IMG/VR virus record: IMGVR_UViG_2703718872_000032
Origin: a virus
Taxonomy: Duplodnaviria > Heunggongvirae > Uroviricota > Caudoviricetes
Length of the DNA stretch: 25,173 bases
Strand: one strand, 5' to 3'
Shown: positions 5,964 through 22,950 of the stretch, in pieces
Position numbering within the stretch: the stretch's first letter is position 1
How the letters are laid out: each line of letters begins with the position of its first letter
Program-made: the position numbers and the translations under genes
Notes under the pieces: generated by a model
Seen by the model: the letters and a program-made list of their open reading frames with translations, nothing else
Database searches by the model: none
What the model was told of the DNA's origin: nothing

Positions 5964-6021
5964 AAAAACGGCGGTAGAGCAGTCACGGAGTAAAACTGAT
6001 ACTGCCAAACGTCACCAGAAA
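5964..6021 (-). ncRNA. dicF: DicF small regulatory RNA (ftsZ-targeting) with 3' stem-loop and U-tract
   Basis: Minus-strand sequence tttctggtgacgtttggcagtatcagttttactccgtgactgctctaccgccgttttt matches the DicF sRNA as I recall it; located just upstream of dicB. Confidence 0.8.
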
Positions 6022-8406: not shown

Positions 8407-9352
8407 ACGCCCACTGGTTATAAACACGCAGCTGGCAATGAAAATCGGCTTAAACGAAGCCATTGTTTTGCAACAACTGCACTACTGGTTGAGAGATACC
8501 AACTCCGGTATGGAATGTGATGGTGTTCGCTGGATTTATAACACAACGGAACAATGGCTGGAACAGTTCCCATTCTGGTCAGAGTCAACGTTAAAGCGCG
8601 CGTTTGCAAGTCTGAAAACGCTGGGGCTTTTGCGTTGTGAAAAGCTCAATAAATCAAAGCGCGATATGACCAATTTCTACACGATCAACTATGGGAGCGA
8701 GCTTTTAGATGGTGGCAAATTGAACGAATCCATCGGTTCAAAATGCGCCGCTCCATCAGGTCAAAATGACACGATGGAAGAGGTCAAAATGAAACGCTCC
8801 ATTGGTTCAAAACGACCCAATGTCATCGGGTCAAAATGGCCTGATGATCTTACAGAGAATACAACAGAGATTACTACAGAGAATAAAAACACTTTTCGTC
8901 CGGAAGCTTCGCAACCGGACCCGCAGACGACTGAACAGGATTTTTTAACCCGGAACCCCGACGCGGTTGTGTTTAGTGTGAAAAAACGCCAGTGGGGTAG
9001 CAGGGAGGATTTGGCGTGTGCGCAGTGGATTTGGGGGCGGATCGTGAACCTTTACGAACAGGCTGCCAGCGACGATGGAGAGATCATGCGACCAAAAGAG
9101 CCTAACTGGACAGCCTGGGCCAATGACGTGCGCACAATGCGGATGCTGGATGGCAGAAGCCATAGACAAATTTGCGAAATGTTTGGTCGGGTACAGCGGG
9201 ATCCATTCTGGGTAAAAAACATCATGAGCCCGTCAAAACTCCGCGAAAAATGGGACGAACTGGTCATCCGCCTGGGACGTTCACCTGAACAGCGTTGTGT
9301 GAATCATATTTCTGAACCGGATACAGAAATTCCGCCTGGTTTCAGAGGATAA
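8387..9352 (+). CDS. Phage replication initiator (lambda O-like organiser) containing the origin iterons
   Basis: Start at MSLLFAERPLVINTQ (internal Met of track ORF 8333..9352). Position after cro/cII-like genes. The gene body contains five 23-bp-spaced repeats that encode a repeated IGSK peptide motif, as in lambda O/ori. Confidence 0.7.
   Translation: MSLLFAERPLVINTQLAMKIGLNEAIVLQQLHYWLRDTNSGMECDGVRWIYNTTEQWLEQFPFWSESTLKRAFASLKTLGLLRCEKLNKSKRDMTNFYTINYGSELLDGGKLNESIGSKCAAPSGQNDTMEEVKMKRSIGSKRPNVIGSKWPDDLTENTTEITTENKNTFRPEASQPDPQTTEQDFLTRNPDAVVFSVKKRQWGSREDLACAQWIWGRIVNLYEQAASDDGEIMRPKEPNWTAWANDVRTMRMLDGRSHRQICEMFGRVQRDPFWVKNIMSPSKLREKWDELVIRLGRSPEQRCVNHISEPDTEIPPGFRG
8731..8838. repeat. 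Replication origin iterons: 5 direct repeats at exact 23-bp spacing (consensus catcggtcaaaatg)
   Basis: Copies start at 8731, 8754, 8777, 8800 and 8823. Followed by an A/T-rich stretch with acagaga repeats (8852..8885). Confidence 0.65.
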
Positions 9353-9392
9353 GTTTTGATTTCAGGTCATGAGGTAATTTTAAGGGGGACTT

Positions 9393-9794
9393 GTGGCAAA
9401 AGTTTTTACACAAGAAGAGCGGGAAAAAATTAAAGGGCAGGTGGTGGAACTCGTGCGCCAGAGTGGTCGTGAGACGTTACGGCAACTGGAAGCTAAAACA
9501 GGTGCGACTAGATATCTGATGAGCGTTCTTGCCAGAGAGCTGGTAGCCAGTGGCGATGTATACAACTCCGGCTACGGGTTATTCCCGTCTGAACAGGCGC
9601 GTAAGGACTGGCAAAACGCCCGCAAAAAACTATCGAGGGCAAAGGTGAAGAAAACAGCTGTGGTTGATCCGGACCTTATCTGGTCGTTACCTGATGGAGA
9701 AATACGTCGCTACGACAGTCGCCTAAACATAATCTGTCGCGAGTGCCGGATGAGTGAAGTTATGCAGCGCATACTGGCATTTTATCAGGGATAA
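9393..9794 (+). CDS. Hypothetical protein (133 aa), GTG start
   Basis: ORF preceded by taagggggac. Basic protein with a C-terminal CxxC. No family recognised. Confidence 0.45.
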   Translation: MAKVFTQEEREKIKGQVVELVRQSGRETLRQLEAKTGATRYLMSVLARELVASGDVYNSGYGLFPSEQARKDWQNARKKLSRAKVKKTAVVDPDLIWSLPDGEIRRYDSRLNIICRECRMSEVMQRILAFYQG

Positions 9795-9887
9795 TGTTAG
9801 GTATTTTAGACGTTACTAGATTAAAAAGCATTAGTTCAGGAGTGAATTGACATTCTCATTTTTCATGGCACAGGGTAGATCTGGCGT

Positions 9888-9917
9888 GGTTGTCCGCTTT
9901 GTGCCAGGAGCGGACGT
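9888..9917 (+). repeat. att-like site A: GGTTGTC + inverted repeat GTCCGC/GCGGAC + conserved 18-mer TGTGCCAGGAGCGGACGT
   Basis: 18-mer at 9900..9917 is identical to 12452..12469. Same GGTTGTC prefix as sites B and D. Confidence 0.5.
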
Positions 9918-10007
9918 TGCTAATGGCATGATGTATGAACCAATGGAGAACCGATCATCTATACACATATAGATCCCTAACGAAAATATTGTTTTCACTA
10001 GCCCTGT

Positions 10008-10044
10008 AATGGAAGCGTTAATTTTATATTCTAACGCTTCCATT
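10008..10044. repeat. Perfect 13-bp palindrome with 11-nt loop (aatggaagcgtta ... taacgcttccatt)
   Basis: Read directly. Lies 3' of the SDR gene but is not followed by a T-tract on either strand. Confidence 0.5.
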
Positions 10045-10096
10045 GAGCCTACCACTTTGGCAAAGCAATTCTTACACTTCAAAATAATGTGCTTTT

Positions 10097-10843
10097 TTAT
10101 TCAGCTAAATAACCGCCATCGATTGGATAAACGCCTCCGGTACAGAATGTAGAACTGTCTGACAGCAAGAACAATATGAAGTCTGCTATTTCCTGCATTT
10201 TTGCCATCCTTTTCATAGGGTGGCTATTTGCGAAACTACTTACAATATTTTCAGGGAACTCACTCATTCTTTGGGTTTGGACATAGCCCGGAGCGACTGC
10301 ATTGATTCGAATGCCTTGACATGCAAACTCTAGCGCTGCGGTTTGGGTTAAACCGATTATACCATGTTTAGCCACGGTGTAAGGTGCTAATCCAGGAATG
10401 CCAACCAGACCATTTACTGCAGATAAATTAACTATAGATCCACCAAACTTCATCATCTGGGGTATTTCATATTTTAGGCAGTGAAAAACGCCGCTCAATG
10501 AGGTAGCAATAACCTTATCCCAGTTTTCAACTGTCTGCTCTGTTATATTTTTACCATGTTCACCTGTTAAGCCTGCATTATTTACAGCATAATCAAGTCT
10601 GCCGAAATGTTTGATAACCTCATCTATCATTTGCCGTACTTGTTCGGGCTGTGACACATCACATCCGATCCCCATGGCTTGTTGTCCCTGTGAAGATAAT
10701 TGTTCCGCTTTTTGTTTAGCCTGTTCTGACGAGCGGGATACAATAACAACTTTTGCACCATGCTTATGTAATTGCTCTGCGACGGCCTCACCTATACCTG
10801 TAGTGCTTCCTGTTATAACGGCAATTTTATTCTGGAAATTCAT
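10097..10843 (-). CDS. Short-chain dehydrogenase/reductase (SDR) family oxidoreductase (248 aa)
   Basis: TGxxxGIG cofactor motif (ITGSTTGIGEA), NNAG, and catalytic YxxxK (YTVAKHG). ATG at 10843 preceded by AGGGGG. Confidence 0.85.
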   Translation of the reverse strand: MNFQNKIAVITGSTTGIGEAVAEQLHKHGAKVVIVSRSSEQAKQKAEQLSSQGQQAMGIGCDVSQPEQVRQMIDEVIKHFGRLDYAVNNAGLTGEHGKNITEQTVENWDKVIATSLSGVFHCLKYEIPQMMKFGGSIVNLSAVNGLVGIPGLAPYTVAKHGIIGLTQTAALEFACQGIRINAVAPGYVQTQRMSEFPENIVSSFANSHPMKRMAKMQEIADFILFLLSDSSTFCTGGVYPIDGGYLAE

Positions 10844-10914
10844 AACCACCCCCTATGAAGTAGAATTGAGTCTTTCATCTGGGATAGTATACAAACCATC
10901 TGTGACAGTTTTTG

Positions 10915-11604
10915 TCAGTACTCTTTCCCCTCGCAGATCCCTTCTTTTATTCTCCATTTTTTCAATAAAATTGTCCTGCTTTCACTATAGTTGGAGTCAA
11001 GTTGCACAATATCTTCAATTTTGTCAGTTCTAAAATGACGAAAATCATTTCTCATCTCGCACCATGCAACCAAAAGCCAGCACGATTCCATGTATACCAA
11101 TCCGATGGGCCATATGACTCGTGAAGTGTAAGAATCTTTTTTATCACAATAATTTATTTTGATTTTCTTTCTTTTTTTTATAGCATTGCGAATGTCTTCA
11201 AAAAAAATCTCATTGTTTTCTGATGGACCGATCAGATAGGATTGACTCTCAATAAGATTTTTCAATTCACTGGGAATGACGGCGTGTATTTTCGCAAGCG
11301 CATTCTTTGCGGTAATTTTGAAATTATAATCTGTATTGTGCGATACCCAATTTAACCCAAGTGTAATAGCATTAATTTCTTCATGAGAAAGATTTAAGGG
11401 GGGCAAATGAAAGTCAGATTTAACAATATAACCAATTCCAGCACCACCTTCAATGCATACTCCTTGATGCTGCAGCGTTTTTATATCTCTGTAAAGGGAG
11501 CGTACACTTATTCCCAATCTTTCTGAGAGGATGGATGCTGTGATCGGATATCTTTGTGCCCTTAATATTTGTAGTAACTCGAGAAGTCTTTCTGTTCTAG
11601 TCAT
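10915..11604 (-). CDS. HTH + WYL-domain transcriptional regulator (YafY-like), 229 aa
   Basis: N-terminal HTH (MTRTERLLELLQILRAQRYPITASILSERLGISVRSLYRDIKTL) followed by a WYL-like central region. Same strand as the SDR gene, immediately upstream of it. Confidence 0.75.
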   Translation of the reverse strand: MTRTERLLELLQILRAQRYPITASILSERLGISVRSLYRDIKTLQHQGVCIEGGAGIGYIVKSDFHLPPLNLSHEEINAITLGLNWVSHNTDYNFKITAKNALAKIHAVIPSELKNLIESQSYLIGPSENNEIFFEDIRNAIKKRKKIKINYCDKKDSYTSRVIWPIGLVYMESCWLLVAWCEMRNDFRHFRTDKIEDIVQLDSNYSESRTILLKKWRIKEGICEGKEY

Positions 11605-11822
11605 GTTGATAAATCCATTTTGAGGCGATTTCTTAAAGCATCTGTTAGATAAACATATTAGTACAAAGCAAGTGTACATGGCTAAGCTGAACTGCTACCG
11701 ATGATTAATACAGCGCTATGTTCGTAATGCGTACATAAGCGGTGATCATGAGTGTAAACATCCGCTTTTCGCTTATAAGGGACAACCATACTCAAATTTC
11801 CCACATTGCAGGAGATTTGAGT

Positions 11823-12425
11823 ATGAATACGTCACCGTGGAACAAAGACCGTATCATCGGCCAAAAAAGACCACTTCAGATATCTCATATCTGGGGGATC
11901 CGAATCCGGCTTGAACTGGAAGGTAAAACGCGCGATTTAGCTCTGTTCAATATGGCCCTGGACAGTAAGCTTCGAGGCTGTGATCTGGTCAAACTCAAAG
12001 TATCGGATGTGGCATATGGTAGTTCGGTTTCAAGCAGAGCAACGGTGTTGCAACAGAAAACCGGTAGCCCTGTGCAATTCGAGATAACCAAAGGGACAAG
12101 AGAAGCTGTTGCTGCATTGATAAAGCTTGGCAATTTGCACAGTAAAGACTTCTTGTTTCGGTCTCGGGTCGGAACTAACCAGCACATTTCAACCCGGCAA
12201 TACAACCGAATCTTTCATGGGTGGATAGAAAAACTTGGTCTCGAAGGTTCACTTTACAGCACACATTCAATGAGAAGAACAAAACCTTACCTGATCTACA
12301 AGAAAACCAAGAATCTCCGGGTGATCCAACTTCTGTTGGGTCATAAGAAACTGGAAAGCACAGTCCGTTATCTGGGCATTGAAGTCGATGATGCGTTAGA
12401 GATCTCTGAATCGATTGAAGTCTAA
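11823..12425 (+). CDS. Small tyrosine site-specific recombinase, FimB/FimE-like (catalytic domain only, 200 aa)
   Basis: ATG at 11823 preceded by AGGAGA. Alignable by eye to FimE: RDLALFNMALDSKLRGCDL vs ARDYCLILLAYRHGMRISEL; STHSMRRT vs THPHMLRH; LLLGHKKLESTVRYL vs DYLGHRNIRHTVRYT (conserved R, H-x-x-R, H, Y). Confidence 0.8.
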   Translation: MNTSPWNKDRIIGQKRPLQISHIWGIRIRLELEGKTRDLALFNMALDSKLRGCDLVKLKVSDVAYGSSVSSRATVLQQKTGSPVQFEITKGTREAVAALIKLGNLHSKDFLFRSRVGTNQHISTRQYNRIFHGWIEKLGLEGSLYSTHSMRRTKPYLIYKKTKNLRVIQLLLGHKKLESTVRYLGIEVDDALEISESIEV

Positions 12426-12469
12426 GGTTGTCAGGGCTGCAACAGCAGCCCTGTGCCAGGAGCGGACGT
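12426..12469 (+). repeat. att-like site B: GGTTGTC + perfect hairpin GGGCTGC-AACA-GCAGCCC + 18-mer TGTGCCAGGAGCGGACGT
   Basis: Starts right after the recombinase stop codon. 18-mer identical to site A; whole site is near-duplicated (degenerate) at 13971..14014. Confidence 0.55.
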
Positions 12470-12576
12470 CTAGTTCGCTGAACCACAAAAAGTCGTTTCT
12501 AGTTATATTACTGGCTCATTAGTATCTTTATGCGATAATATTTCATACAACCAAAATTATGATGAAGGGAGTTCAA

Positions 12577-13698
12577 ATGGCAATTACGGTCTATTCTCGT
12601 ACATTCAAAAAGGAATTGGACATGGTTCAATTGTTAAACCATTACTCATCAGATAACGCACTCAATTTCAGTGATTTCAAGGAATTTGTTGCCTTTGATG
12701 CAGAGTGCCCAATTTGCAATGTAAGCGGTGCGATTGTTGTTTCAGAAGGTTATTCGAAAAGAACAAATAAGATAGTCAGCCAATCTCATTTTGCGTTTAG
12801 AACAAAAGACGGAACTGATGCACACAAAGTATTTTGCGATCATTACAGTGGTGATGATAAGCAAATAGATTCATCAAGGGATGGTTTTATAAAATTCGGC
12901 ACCTCAGGTTCTGAGATTACAAGTATAATTCGCGAGCTTGTATGTAGAGGTATTGAACATGATGAGTTCAATCAGGAAGATATTCGAAACATGCGGCAAT
13001 GGTTTACAGAATTACGCCAGTCAGGCACTTTTTCTGTTAACTATAGCCCTCACATGATCAATCTAATAAGGGCCAGCATGTATTCCCGTAAGGGAGAAAG
13101 TAAATATATTGTAGATGAAGAGAGGAAAAATAAATCTTGGTTTGATATAAACGATGAAGTGTATCGTTCGTTAAGATTCAAATATCCATCATTGATGATC
13201 GACATGACTAATGAAAATAATTCTGTTTTCTATAATCTTGTGAATAGTACCACATTTACTAAACAAGCACATCGATTAGTAGCACGAGATCGAGGTTATC
13301 AGGTTTATGATAGAAGGTTGCTTAAAGAAAAATATGAAGCAACGATAAGAGTTGCACAAAAAATAACCAGGCATCACGAATTTCTTTTTAGGAAAATCAG
13401 GGGTATATCCGCTGTTAAAAAAAACAACCCCCTTTTGGCTGTATCTGCCTTGCTTCTTTTTGTCTCGGACTGGAATGAAACAACTGCAATCAACAAATTC
13501 ATCAAATTGTGTGGTGTAGGGAAATCTAAAAATAATGATGAGGGGAATGTAATTGGCTTAAATCCCTTTATTCATTACGATGTCTGGAATGTTATTCATC
13601 AACTTAAGGATTTAATGGTTACACTTCCAGACTTCTCAAATCTTGATGAAGAATTTGACAGAGAAAAATCCAGATTAATTGAACTTTACAAGCTCTAA
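12577..13698 (+). CDS. Hypothetical protein (373 aa), AT-rich cargo gene of unknown function
   Basis: Long ORF with AAGGGAG RBS 5 nt before the ATG at 12577. Visibly lower GC than the flanking phage genes. Contains CPICN and CDH motifs. No family recognised. Confidence 0.65.
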   Translation: MAITVYSRTFKKELDMVQLLNHYSSDNALNFSDFKEFVAFDAECPICNVSGAIVVSEGYSKRTNKIVSQSHFAFRTKDGTDAHKVFCDHYSGDDKQIDSSRDGFIKFGTSGSEITSIIRELVCRGIEHDEFNQEDIRNMRQWFTELRQSGTFSVNYSPHMINLIRASMYSRKGESKYIVDEERKNKSWFDINDEVYRSLRFKYPSLMIDMTNENNSVFYNLVNSTTFTKQAHRLVARDRGYQVYDRRLLKEKYEATIRVAQKITRHHEFLFRKIRGISAVKKNNPLLAVSALLLFVSDWNETTAINKFIKLCGVGKSKNNDEGNVIGLNPFIHYDVWNVIHQLKDLMVTLPDFSNLDEEFDREKSRLIELYKL

Positions 13699-13740
13699 CA
13701 TAAACTAGCAGGCTGCGTATACAGTCTGCTAATTTTCATA

Positions 13741-13970
13741 GTAAAGACTTCATGCTTCAGTCTCGAGTTGGAGCTATCCGTCACACATCACCCAGGCAAT
13801 TCAACCGAAATTTTTCATGGGGGGTAGAGAAGTTTTGTCTCGAAGATTTGCTTTACAGCATACTAATCATTGAACCTCTGTTGAACCATAAGAAACTGGC
13901 AAGCACAATCCGTTGCTTGGGCATTGAATTCGACGATGCGTCGTATAGCTCTGACTTGAACAAAACATAA
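13741..13970 (+). pseudogene. Degenerate duplicate of the recombinase 3' end (about 230 bp, with internal deletion)
   Basis: DNA from agtaaagacttc onward parallels 12141..12425. Translation FNRNFSWGVEKFCLEDLLYS...LNHKKLASTIRCLGIEFDDA parallels YNRIFHGWIEKLGLEGSLYS...LGHKKLESTVRYLGIEVDDA but lacks the catalytic H-x-x-R block. Confidence 0.65.
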
Positions 13971-14014
13971 GGTTTTTAGGGCTGCAACAGCACCTCTGTG
14001 TCATAGGCGGAAGT
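13971..14014 (+). repeat. att-like site C (degenerate copy of site B)
   Basis: ggtttttagggctgcaacagcacctctgtgtcataggcggaagt versus site B ggttgtcagggctgcaacagcagccctgtgccaggagcggacgt. Confidence 0.45.
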
Positions 14015-14311
14015 TAACAAACATTAAAATCTCTAAATCTGTAGGGATCAGACTCCTTCTATAAAAGGATACTGTTCATATCCTTAGTTGTATATAGGTG
14101 TGTTTAGAGTATTAGGATGCTAGTTTTGAAAATTAATTTTTTAAACATATTGAATTTTTTAAGAATTGGGAATAGTGTATAGCTTTGTCATGGCGGATTT
14201 TTTCTCTTCAAGTATTTATTTGAACACTACTTCTTGCACCTGCAAGGTTACAATATCGTGTAAATTTGTTCACAAAGACATAGATTATAATTTTTACTTA
14301 AAGGAAATTCA

Positions 14312-15565
14312 ATGTCAAAAAATCTCCCGGTTTTATTAAGCTCGCCATCAACAACTAATTTTCCTGCAACAGTTAATACTGAAATAGAATTCCTTTCGCA
14401 AGCTAGAAAGTTGTTAGATTCTGGCTTCCCTGATCATGCTCTTTTAGATATATGGAATGCATCCATTCATAATCTTAGGCGGCGAATTGAGGCTTATGGT
14501 TTAGACTTATTCCTTTCCGCAATAAAGGATGATAGTGGTCGTAAAAAATATGATAAAGATGGTGAAACAATAAACGAGAGATGGTCAGGTGTAGATGATT
14601 TAGTGCTAATAAGTGGAGCCACCAAATTAGGGGTTCTGCATAAGAAAGCTGGAAAATCATTAGAAATGATCAATTGGATGAGAAACCATGCCTCTCCAGC
14701 CCATGCAAGTGATAGTAAAGTAGAGTCTGAGGATGTGTTTGCTTTGGCTCTTATGCTCCAGAAGAATTTATTCGAATCTGATATGCCAGACCCTGGACAT
14801 TCGCCATCTGGATTATTTGAACCCATAAAAAAATCTGAACTATCAATTGAGAGCATAGACTTACTTAAAGATCAAATAAGAGCATTTAAGCAAGCTGATA
14901 TAAGAATAACATTTGGATTTTTATTGGATTTAATAACTAAGGGGGAAAATCCTGCTTATGTTAATGCTAGCAAGTTGTTTGAACAAGCATGGGAAAGATC
15001 TAATGATGACCTTAAAAAAACAGCGGGGGAAAGATATCACTCATTTATGCTGGAGCCCGAATCGGATACAAGTGAGGATAAAGGAGCAAAAATAAGAATT
15101 TTAGAGACTTTAGTAAAAGTTAATGGTGTGAAATTTATACCTGATGCTGCTAGGGCAAGTTTATACAGACATGCGGTTAAACAGCTAGCTAAAGCTAAGG
15201 ATACATCTTACGGCTGGAATGATGAAGAAAGAGCAGCCAAGGCACTTATACAATTTGGACCTCATGTTCCATCTATTGCTTTTGAAGATGTATATCAAGA
15301 AATACTTACTGTTTGGGTGGGGAATTACTGGGGAAGATCTGATGCACATTTAGTACTTCAACCATTTTTAGATGTGTTAAATAGTAATCAATTGATGGCT
15401 CTCTCACGGTTGTTCGTGGAGAATGAAAGAGCAAATTCAGAACTGGTGTCATCAAGGCCCAAAAGAAGAGCAATAGAATTACTTGAGATAATAAAAAATA
15501 ATCTAACAATTCAAGCAAGCATTGATGAAATTGATAGGATTATTTCTGAAATTGATAAAATGTAA
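14312..15565 (+). CDS. Hypothetical protein (417 aa), AT-rich cargo gene of unknown function
   Basis: Long ORF with AAGGAAA RBS and an AT-rich upstream promoter region. Intrinsic terminator directly downstream. No family recognised. Confidence 0.7.
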   Translation: MSKNLPVLLSSPSTTNFPATVNTEIEFLSQARKLLDSGFPDHALLDIWNASIHNLRRRIEAYGLDLFLSAIKDDSGRKKYDKDGETINERWSGVDDLVLISGATKLGVLHKKAGKSLEMINWMRNHASPAHASDSKVESEDVFALALMLQKNLFESDMPDPGHSPSGLFEPIKKSELSIESIDLLKDQIRAFKQADIRITFGFLLDLITKGENPAYVNASKLFEQAWERSNDDLKKTAGERYHSFMLEPESDTSEDKGAKIRILETLVKVNGVKFIPDAARASLYRHAVKQLAKAKDTSYGWNDEERAAKALIQFGPHVPSIAFEDVYQEILTVWVGNYWGRSDAHLVLQPFLDVLNSNQLMALSRLFVENERANSELVSSRPKRRAIELLEIIKNNLTIQASIDEIDRIISEIDKM

Positions 15566-15577
15566 TTTATTTGCAAT

Positions 15578-15610
15578 TAAGCCATGCTTTTTAGGTGGCT
15601 TATTTTTTTT
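15578..15610 (+). terminator. Rho-independent terminator after the 417-aa gene
   Basis: Stem taagcca/tggctta with 11-nt loop, followed by an 8-T run. Confidence 0.6.
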
Positions 15611-15682
15611 GAATCTACTACTTATATTGATATTAGCAATGTAATTGCTAAAGTATTCCTAGCCCACTATTCATCTAAATAT

Positions 15683-15741
15683 GGTTGTCGAAAGGCCCGC
15701 TTCTCGCTCAAAGCGGACTAGAAGGTTAGCTTGTGTCGGAC
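15683..15741 (+). repeat. Possible degenerate att-like site(s) D
   Basis: ggttgtc + inverted repeat ccgctt/aagcgg + agcggac (15683..15718), then aaggtt...tgtgtcggac (15722..15741). These resemble the outer motifs of sites A and B but without the intact 18-mer. Confidence 0.25.
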
Positions 15742-16183
15742 TTTGCGTATTAAATGACTAGTGGTTGAGCCCCATTTCCACAGAAAAAATCAGAGAAACT
15801 ATACCCAATAGTTGTATTGAATCACTGACGAGACAGCCTCATATTCATCAGGACTGGTGTACGTCCAATACAGGAGGTTGTGGTGCTGGTTCTCAAATGT
15901 GCGCTGGCTATTACGGCTGTAATGGCGATTTATTGTCTTGCTATTGTTCTTATGGATCGCCTTTCTGACTGATTTCACATTGGCGAGGTAACGGTAGTTA
16001 AGTAGAATGGCTGCGGGTGCTTGAGGCTATCTGCCTCGGGCATGAACACCAACGGCAGATAGAGAAAAGCCCCAGTTAACATTACGCGTCCTGCAAGACG
16101 CTTAACATTAATCTGAGGCCAATTTCATGCTAGACATATGTAGGTTAGCCTCTTACGTGCCGAAAGGCAAGGAGAAGCAGGCT

Positions 16184-16339
16184 ATGAAGCAGCAAAAGGC
16201 GATGTTAATCGCCCTGATCGTCATCTGTTTAACCGTCATAGTGACGGCACTGGTAACGAGGAAAGACCTCTGCGAGGTACGAATCCGAACCGGCCAGACG
16301 GAGGTCGCTGTCTTCACAGCTTACGAACCTGAGGAGTAA
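16184..16339 (+). CDS. hokD: Hok/Gef-family type I toxin (51 aa)
   Basis: MKQQKAMLIALIVICLTVIVTALVTRKDLCEVRIRTGQTEVAVFTAYEPEE matches HokD (RelF) as I recall it. An in-frame upstream ATG at 16127 gives the 70-aa track ORF. Confidence 0.8.
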   Translation: MKQQKAMLIALIVICLTVIVTALVTRKDLCEVRIRTGQTEVAVFTAYEPEE

Positions 16340-19103: not shown

Positions 19104-19644
19104 CTTTAAATGGGGCAATAGAGATATTGAATCTCATCCCGGGATAAACATTGGCAGTTGAAGGTCCACGCGAACCATTTATCCAGCAAAATTCCACGCG
19201 TAATCCTGTGGTAATTTCTTCTGCATCTCGAAGATTGAGAGCTGAAACGTGAAGCTGGGCATCGATACGCCATCGGATGGGAATATAAGACCTTTGCTGC
19301 TTTTGTAGTCAAAGTTTTTGACAATTCCTGTCATTTTAGGGGACAGAAAAACTCCTTAATACTGATAACCTGGTGCACCATACACACGTTCCTGGAGAAA
19401 ACTACTTTTTTGATAGGGTTGAAGGTGGCTGGATGTCTAAAATAAACATTGCTTCATATGTTCAACTATGAGTTAATGACTGTGTCGGTTTGAAGAACAG
19501 ACGATATACGAAGTAGTTTACTAAAGCAGTTCTCATTTCAGGTGTTATTCACTTATTCCTTCTTTGAGTCTCTCCAATTAAGTACGAAGTCGTTTCTGTT
19601 ATGCAAACCATTTATGCCGAAAGGCTCAAGTTAAGGAATGTAGA

Positions 19645-19860
19645 ATGTCAAATAAAATGACTGGTTTAGTAAAATGGTTTAACGCTGATAAAGGTTTCGG
19701 CTTTATTTCTCCTGTTGATGGTAGTAAAGATGTGTTTGTGCATTTTTCTGCGATTCAGAATGATAATTATCGAACCTTATTTGAAGGTCAAAAGGTTACC
19801 TTCTCTATAGAGAGTGGTGCTAAAGGTCCTGCAGCAGCAAATGTCATCATTACTGATTAA
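19645..19860 (+). CDS. cspB: Cold-shock protein, CspA family (71 aa), CspB-like
   Basis: [38 protein letters not shown]... with RNP1/RNP2 motifs. Long upstream 5' UTR. Confidence 0.85.
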
Positions 19861-20144
19861 AATTCATCGCTCGTCTGTATACGATAACGAAGAAGGCTGA
19901 TGCCTGAGTAGAGATACGGACAGAGTAGTGAATATTGGATCTCTTTAATAAAAAGTAAGGAGGTCCAATACATGAAACAATGGCCAGCATATTTGGCAAA
20001 ATCTTAATCAGGAAAAGTATGCTAACCATTGTGGTGAAGTGCAGGTTTGCTGCATGAATAGTTTCACAGCAGAAGCTAACTGCTGGCATCGCAAAACAAA
20101 GTGCGTAAGTGGATGACTCCCACAAAAAGCACCACAATCTCAAA

Positions 20145-22168: not shown

Positions 22169-22530
22169 GGTAATATTAAATCGGAACATTTACATCGCGG
22201 AATGTAAAATTTAAATAAAAAGGACTCTTCCATGAGCCAAAATTCCTGAAATCTTAAGGGTAAGATAAAAGGTCTTAATCAGAATGACACGTTTTATTAA
22301 TAAATAAAGCTATTCTTTCATTGCTGTGTTTTTCTTTACAAAAGTAATCCTTGCTATGGGTGGTTAATCATGCGTTAATGGTGTTCTGGTTTGTTACAAA
22401 TTTATCTGAAGCAGTCATTGTTATAATTTTATTATTTGTACCTCTTGAGATTTCCTTGTTGGTTTTTCTCTCTGATATTTTTTTTCGGACCATTCTGCCC
22501 AAGGGCTAATTTCTTCAAAAGGTAATAATT

Positions 22531-22743
22531 ATGTCTAACAAAATGACTGGTTTAGTAAAATGGTTTAACCCTGAAAAAGGTTTTGGTTTCATCACGCCGA
22601 AAGATGGCAGCAAAGATGTGTTTGTCCATTTCTCAGCAATTCAGAGCAACGATTTCAAAACATTAACTGAGAATCAGGAAGTTGAATTTGGTATTGAGAA
22701 CGGACCTAAAGGTCCTGCCGCTGTTCATGTAGTGGCGCTTTGA
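22531..22743 (+). CDS. cspI: Cold-shock protein, CspA family (70 aa), CspI-like
   Basis: [70 protein letters not shown]. Confidence 0.85.
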
Positions 22744-22950
22744 GGTAGACAATATTACAAACCATATTCACTTTAGATGCCCGTGTTGTCATGGTTCCCA
22801 GTATAGAACATCATCTTTTGATGTTTCTGACATGAATCCTTTCGGGGCAAAATGTATCTTTTGTAAATCAATGATGATTACATTTGATAATATTTCACAA
22901 TACTTAAATGCTAGCCGTCTGTCGTTGGATTTAAAAAAGTGAAAATGAAG

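What the first reader, a model, noticed from the sequence alone, without database searches (positions are those of the whole stretch)
12577..13698. AT-rich 373-aa cargo protein of unknown function (cassette 2)
Visibly lower GC than the surrounding phage genes, own promoter-like AT-rich leader, strong RBS. No motif I can assign to a known family (it has CPICN and CDH Cys/His motifs). Single-gene cargo at a prophage moron site bounded by recombination sites is typical of anti-phage or superinfection-exclusion genes, but that is inference only.
Basis: inference. Interest (0 to 1): 0.6.

Follow-up and report, generated by a model that had tools for sequence, protein, structure and literature searches.

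The report
Orphan zinc protein on mobile cassette
This is a real, conserved gene for a zinc-binding protein whose fold matches nothing solved, carried as a swappable gene cassette inside an E. coli prophage, and the company it keeps suggests, but does not prove, an anti-phage role.

Summary
The ORF at 12577-13698 (+) is real. It encodes 373 aa, has 35.5% GC against 48-50% in the flanking Qin-type prophage genes, a strong Shine-Dalgarno site and a hairpin terminator. Its dN/dS against a 90%-identical E. coli copy is 0.11.

The gene is the payload of a 1.5-kb cassette. The cassette sits in an array bounded by 24-bp sites (GTCCGCT-NN-GTGCCA-RR-AGCGGAC) that belong to a 200-aa tyrosine recombinase encoded next door. 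The same cassettes occur at 99.7% identity in a conjugative element. A precise empty site exists in a sister prophage. In another strain the same array position carries PD-T7-1, a validated defence gene.

Family members always sit on mobile elements, and about half lie within 10 kb of defence-type genes. A stand-alone defence role is the best guess (about 0.4). It is not shown, and the mechanism is unknown.

The parts
9892..9915 (+). Full A-type recombination site GTCCGCTTTGTGCCAGGAGCGGAC. It is the left boundary of the cassette array and the left copy of the 18-nt direct repeat (9900-9917).
   Evidence: 0 expected by chance. Homology to other Qin-like prophages ends at 9917-9923.
10097..11679 (-). 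SDR oxidoreductase (10097-10849) and HTH-WYL regulator (10915-11679). These are cargo of the recombinase module.
   Evidence: Pfam and PADLOC hits; RefSeq annotation.
11823..12425 (+). 200-aa tyrosine recombinase with an intact R...HxxR...H...Y set. It is the enzyme the flanking sites most likely belong to.
   Evidence: PF00589 at 1e-17. It falls far below every named NCBIfam cut-off, integron integrase included. Present in 900/5426 E. coli genomes and in more than 576 loci across species. Alignment.
12432..12469 (+). GC hairpin (12432-12453) followed by the half-site GTGCCAGGAGCGGAC (12453-12467). It is the right copy of the 18-nt direct repeat (12452-12469) and the left boundary of the target cassette.
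   Evidence: The 99.7% identity to the ICE segment starts at 12452. A precise empty site exists in L119.
12531..12571 (+). Candidate extended -10 (TGcGATAAT, 12531-12539) and Shine-Dalgarno AAGGGAG (12565-12571).
   Evidence: Read from the sequence. The promoter scan did not report it, so the promoter is inference.
12577..13698 (+). The 373-aa protein. It has an N-terminal alpha/beta domain of about 100 aa with C44-x2-C47...H83-x3-C87, and a helical C-terminal domain with invariant R140, W142 and G323-N-x2-G-x-N-P-F.
13706..13731 (+). Terminator-like hairpin (10 pairs) followed by ATTTTC.
   Evidence: z = -3.6.
13719..14014 (+). Decayed 3' end of a second copy of the recombinase gene (about 75% identical to 12120-12469, with an internal deletion), with a degenerate hairpin and half-site (TGTGTCATAGGCGGAAGT, about 13997-14014). 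It is the right boundary of the target cassette.
   Evidence: In SF-468 the remnant is 93.5% identical to the intact gene.
14312..15565 (+). 417-aa protein of the next cassette. It is also an orphan (PHROG 27609 only).
15695..15718 (+). B-type site GCCCGCTTCTCGCTCAAAGCGGAC, whose reverse complement is 81% identical to the A site. It is the right boundary of the array.
   Evidence: Identity to the ICE ends at 15719, and prophage homology resumes at 15697.

Best explanation
Window 12577-13698 encodes a soluble, cytoplasmic 373-aa protein of a rare, uniform, uncharacterised family.

Shown:
- It is a self-contained transcription unit (Shine-Dalgarno site, terminator hairpin) under purifying selection.
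- It has an invariant C-x2-C...H-x3-C set in a small N-terminal alpha/beta domain, with invariant E13, Q18, D41 and nearly invariant H71. Invariant R140/W142 and a G-N-x2-G-x-N-P-F loop lie in a helical C-terminal domain.
- Its predicted fold has no neighbour among solved structures.
- It is the payload of a 1.5-kb cassette in an array delimited by 24-bp sites that accompany a 200-aa tyrosine recombinase. These cassettes are exchanged between prophages and a conjugative element.

Inferred:
- The Cys/His set binds zinc.
- The protein works alone as a conflict (anti-phage or anti-mobile-element) factor that benefits whichever element carries it.
- The N-terminal zinc domain and its acidic/His cluster recognise or process an invading nucleic acid or nucleotide, and the helical domain supplies the binding surface.

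The role is a guilt-by-association call. The biochemical step is a guess.
For: Real and constrained:
- 128 homologues.
- 214 clusters in 1.84 billion representatives, all about 370 aa, with no fusions.
- dN/dS of 0.11.
- Invariant residues are kept in the 28%-identical SSU5 clade.

Self-contained:
- Always a solo gene with varying neighbours.

Mobile cargo:
- Window 12452-15719 is 99.7% identical to a segment of an ICE-like element, and the identity ends exactly at the sites.
- The gene alone, with its recombinase remnant, lies next to a DUF4365 gene in SF-468.
- Family members occur on IncX1 and IncFII plasmids, on Yersinia and Rhizobium plasmids, in a P4-like element, in ICE-like elements and in SSU5 phage-plasmids.

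Defence company:
- A NACHT protein next door on IncX1.
- An AAA+UvrD pair directly upstream and a reverse transcriptase downstream in Rhizobium.
- TIR_2, KAP NTPase, OLD-like TOPRIM, DUF3644 and DUF5677 in Vibrio.
- A NADAR/PRTase-CE/ORC-CDC6-like operon.
- Zeta toxin and HATPase_c_3+DUF6685 in Acinetobacter.
- At the very same prophage position in strain JS316, the cassette beside the recombinase is full-length PD-T7-1 (4e-156). PD-T7-1 is an experimentally validated single-gene system (PMC9519451).
- Other cassettes of this platform carry SIR2-HerA, HEC-08/DUF3644 and a type IV restriction enzyme.

Distribution:
- Rare and patchy: 19 of 5426 E. coli genomes.
Against: - No defence HMM matches, even at E<=1.
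- No nuclease, NTPase or other catalytic motif could be assigned.
- Cargo of this cassette system is mostly not defence: of 54 cassette ORFs only about 6 hit defence models, and the rest include MFS, ArsB/C, NUDIX, GNAT and SDR proteins.
- One clade is a syntenic, apparently fixed gene of SSU5-like phage-plasmids, sitting among early or accessory genes. That pattern is less typical of swappable defence genes.
- I ran no background control for the neighbour counts.
- Zinc binding is inferred from sequence only.
Confidence: 0.4

Rival explanations
1. It is a counter-defence or establishment factor that helps an incoming mobile element survive host or resident-element immunity (for example by binding or modifying a host defence component), rather than a defence.
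For: - The SSU5 clade is a conserved, syntenic gene in about 110-kb phage-plasmids. It sits in a block with an orphan DNA methyltransferase, an anti-repressor and many small early-type ORFs.
- Homologues lie on conjugative IncX1 and other plasmids.
- Defence and anti-defence genes share islands, so the neighbour evidence does not separate the two.
Against: - Many copies sit in chromosomal variable spots and decayed islands with no transfer or phage genes nearby (Shewanella and Pectobacterium). A factor acting at entry would have little use there.
- At 373 aa, with its own promoter-like leader and terminator inside a resident prophage cassette, it looks like a lysogen-expressed gene.
Confidence: 0.2
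2. It is an accessory protein unrelated to phage conflict, for example a zinc-dependent regulator, a stress-response or metabolic enzyme, or a DNA-metabolism helper. It would be just one more item in a cassette system that carries all kinds of adaptive genes.
For: - Most cassette cargo on this platform is transporters, detoxification and small-molecule enzymes.
- The neighbouring module here is an SDR plus a WYL regulator.
- Two family members sit beside umuDC/umuC.
Against: - No similarity to any enzyme or regulator family by sequence or fold.
- No conserved partner genes or operon.
- The recurring company is defence-type, not metabolic.
Confidence: 0.25
3. It is an accessory factor of the cassette recombination system itself (a directionality factor or a site-binding protein for the 200-aa recombinase).
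For: - In E. coli the gene is always followed by a remnant of the recombinase gene.
- In Vibrio a 46%-identical recombinase lies beside the module that contains the homologue.
- A 55%-identical homologue in L123 has a site 1 kb away.
Against: - Most family members have no such recombinase or site within 8-10 kb.
- Most recombinase loci (900 E. coli genomes, 80 species loci) lack this gene.
- At 373 aa it is large for such a factor.
Confidence: 0.03
4. It is a decaying or non-functional ORF that hitch-hikes on the cassette.
For: The neighbouring recombinase copy is a remnant, so parts of the array are decaying.
Against: - Full-length conservation across classes of Proteobacteria, with invariant residues.
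- dN/dS of 0.11.
- An intact Shine-Dalgarno site and terminator.
Confidence: 0.02

Closest known systems
PHROG 12525 / gp107 (SSU5_107, YP_006906739.1) of Salmonella phage-plasmid SSU5 and its Klebsiella, Enterobacter and E. coli phage-plasmid relatives
   Same: Same family. The PHROG match is full-length at 2e-147. The tblastn match is 28-29% identical over 92% of the protein. All invariant residues are shared.
   Different: The phage-plasmid proteins are about 400-408 aa with a C-terminal extension. They occupy a fixed syntenic position rather than a cassette. Their function is equally unknown.
PD-T7-1 and other single-gene anti-phage systems found in E. coli prophages and mobile elements (Vassallo et al. 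2022, PMC9519451)
   Same: Both are single genes of about 370-450 aa, rare and patchy in E. coli, and carried on prophages or mobile elements. PD-T7-1 occupies a cassette of the same array at the same prophage position in strain JS316.
   Different: There is no sequence similarity (PADLOC), and no phenotype is known for the 373-aa protein.
Integron gene cassettes (IntI plus attC; defence cassettes in sedentary chromosomal integrons, bioRxiv 10.1101/2024.07.02.601686)
   Same: - Arrays of short one-to-few-gene units.
- Each unit is bounded by recombination sites.
- The arrays lie next to a tyrosine recombinase gene.
- Cargo is mixed and includes defence systems.
- The same cassette is found in different arrays.
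   Different: - The recombinase is 200 aa and scores 14-15 bits against integron-integrase models whose cut-offs are 265-435 bits.
- The sites are 24-bp near-palindromes, not 60-140-nt attC hairpins.
- Cassettes carry their own promoter-like leaders and terminators.
- The recombinase gene lies inside a cassette-like module that itself inserts and excises.
dif (pdif) modules of Acinetobacter plasmids (e.g. PMC13141974)
   Same: Both are small gene modules bounded by short (24-28 bp) tyrosine-recombinase core-type sites, sometimes in inverted orientation, and shuffled between replicons.
   Different: pdif modules use the host XerC/XerD and dif-like sequences. Here the site sequence is unrelated, and a dedicated small recombinase travels with the array.

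Membership tests
PHROG 12525 / SSU5 gp107-like family | Full-length profile match | tested here: met
   2.2e-147, residues 1-372 against profile positions 1-356 of 399.
PHROG 12525 / SSU5 gp107-like family | Shared invariant residues (C44, C47, H83, C87, E13, Q18, D41, R140, W142, G323-N...G-x-N-P) | tested here: met
   Alignments of 60 and 65 members.
Known anti-phage defence systems (PADLOC-DB 2.0) | Match to a defence-protein model | tested here: not met
   0 families at E<=1.
Known anti-phage defence systems (PADLOC-DB 2.0) | Recurrent location beside defence genes or on mobile elements | tested here: inconclusive
   All of about 19 contexts are mobile or variable, and about half have defence-type domains within 10 kb. 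No background control was run.
Known anti-phage defence systems (PADLOC-DB 2.0) | Protection from phage when expressed | not testable with these tools
   Needs a plaque or liquid-infection assay.
Integron gene cassette | IntI-type integrase adjacent to the array | tested here: not met
   The recombinase scores 14.7 bits (cut-off 435) on NF011946 and 13.8 bits (cut-off 265) on TIGR02249. It is 200 aa, whereas the integron-integrase profiles are 315-337 positions long.
Integron gene cassette | attC site at the cassette 3' end | tested here: not met
   The boundaries are 24-bp GTCCGCT-N10-AGCGGAC sites or a hairpin plus half-site. No attC-finding program was available.
Integron gene cassette | Array of exchangeable cassettes | tested here: met
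Acinetobacter-type dif module | Flanking XerC/XerD (dif-like) 28-bp sites, with the host Xer as recombinase | tested here: not met
   The site sequence bears no resemblance to dif as I recall it. A dedicated recombinase gene, always followed by a half-site, accompanies the arrays.
HNH / His-Me finger or other zinc-finger nucleases | Profile or fold match to a beta-beta-alpha-metal nuclease | tested here: not met
PARP-type CCHC zinc finger (pattern recalled from memory: C-x2-C-x28-30-H-x2-C) | Profile match and spacing | tested here: not met
   The spacing here is C-x2-C-x35-H-x3-C. There is no Pfam match and no fold match.

The most novel reading that the evidence does not exclude
The 373-aa protein is the founding member of a new single-gene anti-phage or anti-plasmid defence family built on a zinc-binding fold not yet seen in solved structures. 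It rides on a cassette-capture platform that I could not find described: a 200-aa tyrosine recombinase plus 24-bp GTCCGCT-N10-AGCGGAC sites. That recombinase is present in about 17% of complete E. coli genomes, with close relatives across Proteobacteria and beyond. The platform would act as a non-integron, integron-like distributor of defence and other adaptive genes among prophages, conjugative elements and plasmids.
Probability: 0.2. Interest if true: 0.85.

Novelty: new variant of a known kind. Interest (0 to 1): 0.6.

Why it matters
If the protein is a defence (or counter-defence) factor, it would add a family with no detectable relative and no known fold to the E. coli immune repertoire. 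It is already sitting in Shiga-toxin-producing strains, in conjugative elements and in the widespread SSU5-type phage-plasmids of Klebsiella and Salmonella.

The cassette context matters independently of the protein's function. Prophage 'moron' sites are usually treated as unexplained hotspots. Here the variable block has exact boundaries at recombinase sites, a precise empty site, and the same cassettes in unrelated elements. That gives a concrete, testable mechanism for how single-gene systems such as PD-T7-1 move between mobile elements. The recombinase and its site could also serve as bait for finding further cargo genes.

Tried and rejected
Searches that returned nothing:
- Sequence families. 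Pfam (E<=10), NCBIfam and PADLOC (E<=1) gave nothing. Only a PHROG of unknown function matched.
- A profile built from 60 homologues, searched against all PDB sequences, gave only chance hits (best E 0.19).
- A profile search of 1.84 billion representative proteins found no distant relatives with other domains and no fusions.
- The AlphaFold-database library was not available.
- Rfam found nothing in or around the gene.
- Literature searches by protein accession, by PHROG or locus tag, by keywords for a small-recombinase cassette system, and by the site sequence itself all returned nothing relevant.

Ideas considered and dropped:
- The longer start at 12559. Homologues and RefSeq start at 12577.
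- A two-gene system with the 417-aa neighbour. SF-468 has a different neighbour.
- A membrane or exclusion protein. There is no hydrophobic span; the maximum KD19 is 1.5.
- A classical integron cassette, a dif module, an HNH nuclease and a PARP-type finger (see the membership tests).
- The upstream partner gene of the P0100 clade as a general partner. It is one element seen repeatedly.

Full report
**Where the window comes from.** The window is an E. coli Qin/DicB-type lambdoid prophage next to a chromosomal alcohol dehydrogenase gene.
- It is 99.96% identical to the Shiga-toxin-type strain 2012EL-2448 over 15 kb.
- It carries an integrase, a RecE-like exonuclease, dicA/dicC, ydaT, a DUF977 gene, hokD, rem, ydfU, an antiterminator Q and lysis genes.
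- Rfam finds DicF, sok and two cspA-type leaders.

The ORF is real and its coordinates are right.
- An ORF runs from 12559 to 13698.
- The start at 12577 is the RefSeq start and the start of nearly all homologues.
- AAGGGAG lies 5 nt upstream of that start.
- GC is 0.355 (GC3 0.316) against 0.48-0.50 in the flanking phage genes. The whole 9.9-15.7 kb block is AT-rich at 0.378.
- A 10-pair hairpin followed by a T-run lies 8 nt after the stop codon.
- The promoter scan reported nothing on the + strand of the leader. By eye there is an extended -10, TGcGATAAT, at 12531-12539. The promoter is therefore plausible but not demonstrated.
- dN/dS against the 90%-identical copy in strain SF-468 is 0.11.

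**The protein has no assignable family.**
- Pfam, NCBIfam and PADLOC give nothing. The only hit is PHROG 12525, of unknown function, at 2e-147.
- The large protein collection holds 128 homologues, all about 370 aa and all unnamed. They come from Enterobacterales, Vibrio, Shewanella, Acinetobacter, Aeromonas, Pseudomonas, Brevundimonas and a flavobacterial MAG.
- A profile search of 1.84 billion representatives finds only 214 clusters. The complete ones have the same length and none has an added domain.
- A further clade, 28-29% identical, is gp107 of phage-plasmid SSU5 and its counterparts in about 110-kb Klebsiella, Salmonella, Enterobacter and E. coli phage-plasmids. There it sits at a fixed position.
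- In all, 266 plasmid records carry a family member.

**Conserved residues point to a zinc site.** Together with H83 they form an invariant C-x2-C-x35-H-x3-C set, which I read as a zinc site. That reading is an inference from sequence. The following residues are also invariant or nearly so, including in the SSU5 clade:
- E13, Q18, D41, Q69, H71, F72 and F74
- C123, Q133, R137, R140 and W142
- D245 and Y253
- an A-x2-A-L-L-L-F helix and W299
- G323-N-x2-G-x-N-P-F

The protein has no membrane span. Its N-terminal part is mildly acidic and its C-terminal part is basic.

**The predicted fold has no solved neighbour.**
- AlphaFold2 with the 60-sequence alignment gives a confident model (pLDDT 89.9, pTM 0.86). 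It has a small alpha/beta domain (residues 1 to about 100) and an all-helical remainder.
- Foldseek against all PDB chains gives nothing below E=2.
- A profile search of PDB sequences gives only chance hits, with a best E of 0.19.
- The AlphaFold-database library was not available, so the claim is limited to 'no relative among solved structures'.

**The gene is the payload of a mobile cassette.** This is the clearest result.
- The 18-nt string TGTGCCAGGAGCGGACGT occurs at 9900 and again at 12452.
- The first copy is part of a 24-bp near-palindrome, GTCCGCTTTGTGCCAGGAGCGGAC (9892-9915).
- A related site with a different centre, GCCCGCTTCTCGCTCAAAGCGGAC, lies at 15695-15718. None is expected by chance.
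- Between them lie three units:
  1. 9916-12451: an SDR, an HTH-WYL regulator and a 200-aa tyrosine recombinase with an intact catalytic set.
  2. 12468-13998: the target gene plus a decayed 3' end of a second recombinase gene, ending in a degenerate site.
  3. 14013-15694: a 417-aa orphan ORF.

**Comparison with other genomes shows that these units move.**
- Window 12452-15719 is 99.7% identical to a segment of an ICE-like element (traJ/trbJ/trbL) in strain Ecol_AZ147. The identity starts and stops exactly at the sites.
- In a sister prophage (L119), window 9290-9917 is joined directly to 12452 through a single intact site. This is a precise empty site for the recombinase module.
- In strain SF-468 the target cassette alone is followed by an unrelated DUF4365 gene. 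It consists of a site, the gene, and a recombinase remnant 93.5% identical to the intact gene.
- In strain JS316 the same prophage position holds a different cassette set. Homology is lost at 9923 and regained at 15697.

**The recombinase and its sites are widespread.**
- The recombinase gene is in 900 of 5426 complete E. coli genomes, including Nissle 1917, each time beside different genes.
- More than 576 relatives at 60-99% identity were found among species-representative genomes. They span Gamma-, Beta- and Alphaproteobacteria, Flavobacteria and some other phyla.
- In the Enterobacterales copies and many of the more distant ones, the gene is followed by a GC hairpin and a GTGCCA-RRAGCGGAC-type half-site.
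- In Enterobacterales the full sites recur in the same orientation every 0.6-4 kb, separating units of one to four genes.
- The recombinase is far below the cut-offs of integron-integrase, Xer and Fim-type invertase models. It has no PDB relative by sequence.
- I found no paper describing this system, by keywords or by the site sequence. That search covers open-access text only, so I cannot exclude a description elsewhere.

**What the cassettes carry.** Of 54 cassette ORFs from 12 arrays, most are transporters, arsenic resistance, NUDIX, GNAT and SDR proteins and the like. Several are defence systems:
- full-length PD-T7-1, beside the recombinase at the same prophage site in JS316
- SIR2-HerA
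- HEC-08/DUF3644 in Nissle
- a type IV restriction enzyme

PD-T7-1 is an experimentally validated single-gene system. The study that found it concluded that prophages and mobile elements are the main defence reservoirs in E. coli, often with only an integrase nearby (PMC9519451).

**The family's neighbours.** The gene is always solo, with no conserved partner.

| Host / element | Neighbourhood |
|---|---|
| Pectobacterium | beside two serine recombinases |
| Shewanella | variable spot after the hut operon |
| Pseudomonas viridiflava | between umuDC and P2-type tail genes |
| Acinetobacter island | integrases, zeta toxin, AcrVA2-like gene, HATPase_c_3+DUF6685 |
| Salmonella IncFII plasmid | beside K88-type fimbrial genes |
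| E. coli IncX1 plasmid | next to a NACHT protein |
| Yersinia plasmid | DUF4145 and an AAA ATPase |
| Rhizobium plasmid | directly after an AAA-ATPase/UvrD-helicase pair and before a reverse transcriptase |
| P4-like element | beside the primase |
| Vibrio (three contexts) | 3.84-kb four-gene module with TIR_2, KAP NTPase, OLD-like TOPRIM and DUF3644 neighbours; once beside a 46%-identical small recombinase |
| Metagenomic contigs (P0100 clade) | at the end of a NADAR/PRTase-CE/ORC-CDC6-like operon |

Small serine recombinases, which flank the Pectobacterium and IncX1 copies, have been proposed as markers of defence loci (PMC13552941). These counts are qualitative, because I ran no matched control.

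**Verdict.** The defence reading is the best-supported hypothesis (about 0.4) but rests only on association. Three other readings remain open:
- a counter-defence or establishment role (0.2)
- an unrelated accessory role (0.25)
- a role in cassette recombination (0.03)

No biochemical mechanism can be assigned. The invariant Cys/His set, with an acidic/His cluster and conserved Arg/Trp/Asn residues, suggests a zinc-stabilised binding or catalytic pocket, but that is inference. I rate the finding moderately high. It is an orphan-fold family on clinically relevant mobile elements, delivered by a cassette system that appears not to have been described.

Noticed in passing
window 9892-15718; also L035 (Nissle 1917), L036 (JS316), L003, L042, L044, L045, L047: An integron-like array system. 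A 200-aa tyrosine recombinase is accompanied by 24-bp sites (GTCCGCT-NN-GTGCCA-RR-AGCGGAC, plus a second class with centre TCGCTC) that separate cassettes of one to four genes. The recombinase is in 900/5426 E. coli genomes and has more than 576 relatives at 60-99% identity across Proteobacteria and other phyla. I found no description of it in the searchable literature.
   Followed up: yes
window 9916-12451, compared with L119 5868-5891: The SDR + HTH-WYL + recombinase module is flanked by an exact 18-nt direct repeat. It is missing, with one intact site left, in a sister Qin-like prophage. This is a textbook insertion/excision footprint.
   Followed up: yes
L036 5334-6683 (-), E. coli JS316: Full-length PD-T7-1 (4e-156) sits in the cassette beside the same recombinase, at the same prophage position that holds the SDR/WYL genes in the window.
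   Followed up: yes
window 14312-15565 (+): The next cassette encodes a 417-aa protein that is also an orphan: no Pfam, NCBIfam or PADLOC hit, only PHROG 27609. It travels with the target gene in the prophage and the ICE-like element but not in SF-468.
   Followed up: partly
window 13719-14014: A decayed 3' third of a second recombinase gene with an internal deletion and a degenerate hairpin/half-site. This suggests the target gene once formed a two-gene element with its own recombinase.
   Followed up: partly
L038-L117, 0-75 nt after the recombinase stop codon: In the Enterobacterales loci and many more distant ones (Pseudomonas, Vreelandella, a Cellvibrionaceae MAG, a Flavobacterium), the recombinase gene is followed by a GC-rich hairpin and then a (G/C)GCCA-NNN-GCGG-type half-site. 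The stem sequence varies between lineages while the pairing is kept. Some distant loci show no clear half-site.
   Followed up: partly
L026, L027, L029 (Vibrio), about 9740-13615; repeats at L026 4348-4445 and L029 13607-13686, 15574-15670: A 3.84-kb module (target homologue plus three small ORFs) is 99.4-99.9% identical in three different genomic contexts. It ends at TTTTGTCCA. Repeats of 80-97 bp (TGTCCAGAGGC...GCCCCAAAG, ending near GTTAGAY) lie between neighbouring genes. This could be a related site type or integron attC-like elements.
   Followed up: partly
L032 862-8897: One clade of the family (P0100) lies 80 nt after a tightly packed NADAR / hydrolase-like / PRTase-CE / ORC-CDC6-like / 390-aa gene cluster. 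A 5'-truncated copy of the 390-aa gene plus the homologue also sits in an ICE-like element (L030).
   Followed up: partly
L009/L010 6178-7879 and L011 6427-7716: Two distant family members (Pseudomonas, Acinetobacter) sit immediately beside umuDC/umuC error-prone polymerase genes. This may be coincidence, since both are common mobile-element cargo.
   Followed up: no
window 5969-6020 (-), 16015-16189 (+), 19484-19876 (+), 22385-22770 (+): Rfam matches to DicF, sok (with hokD) and two cspA-type thermoregulator leaders. These confirm the Qin-type prophage backbone.
   Followed up: no
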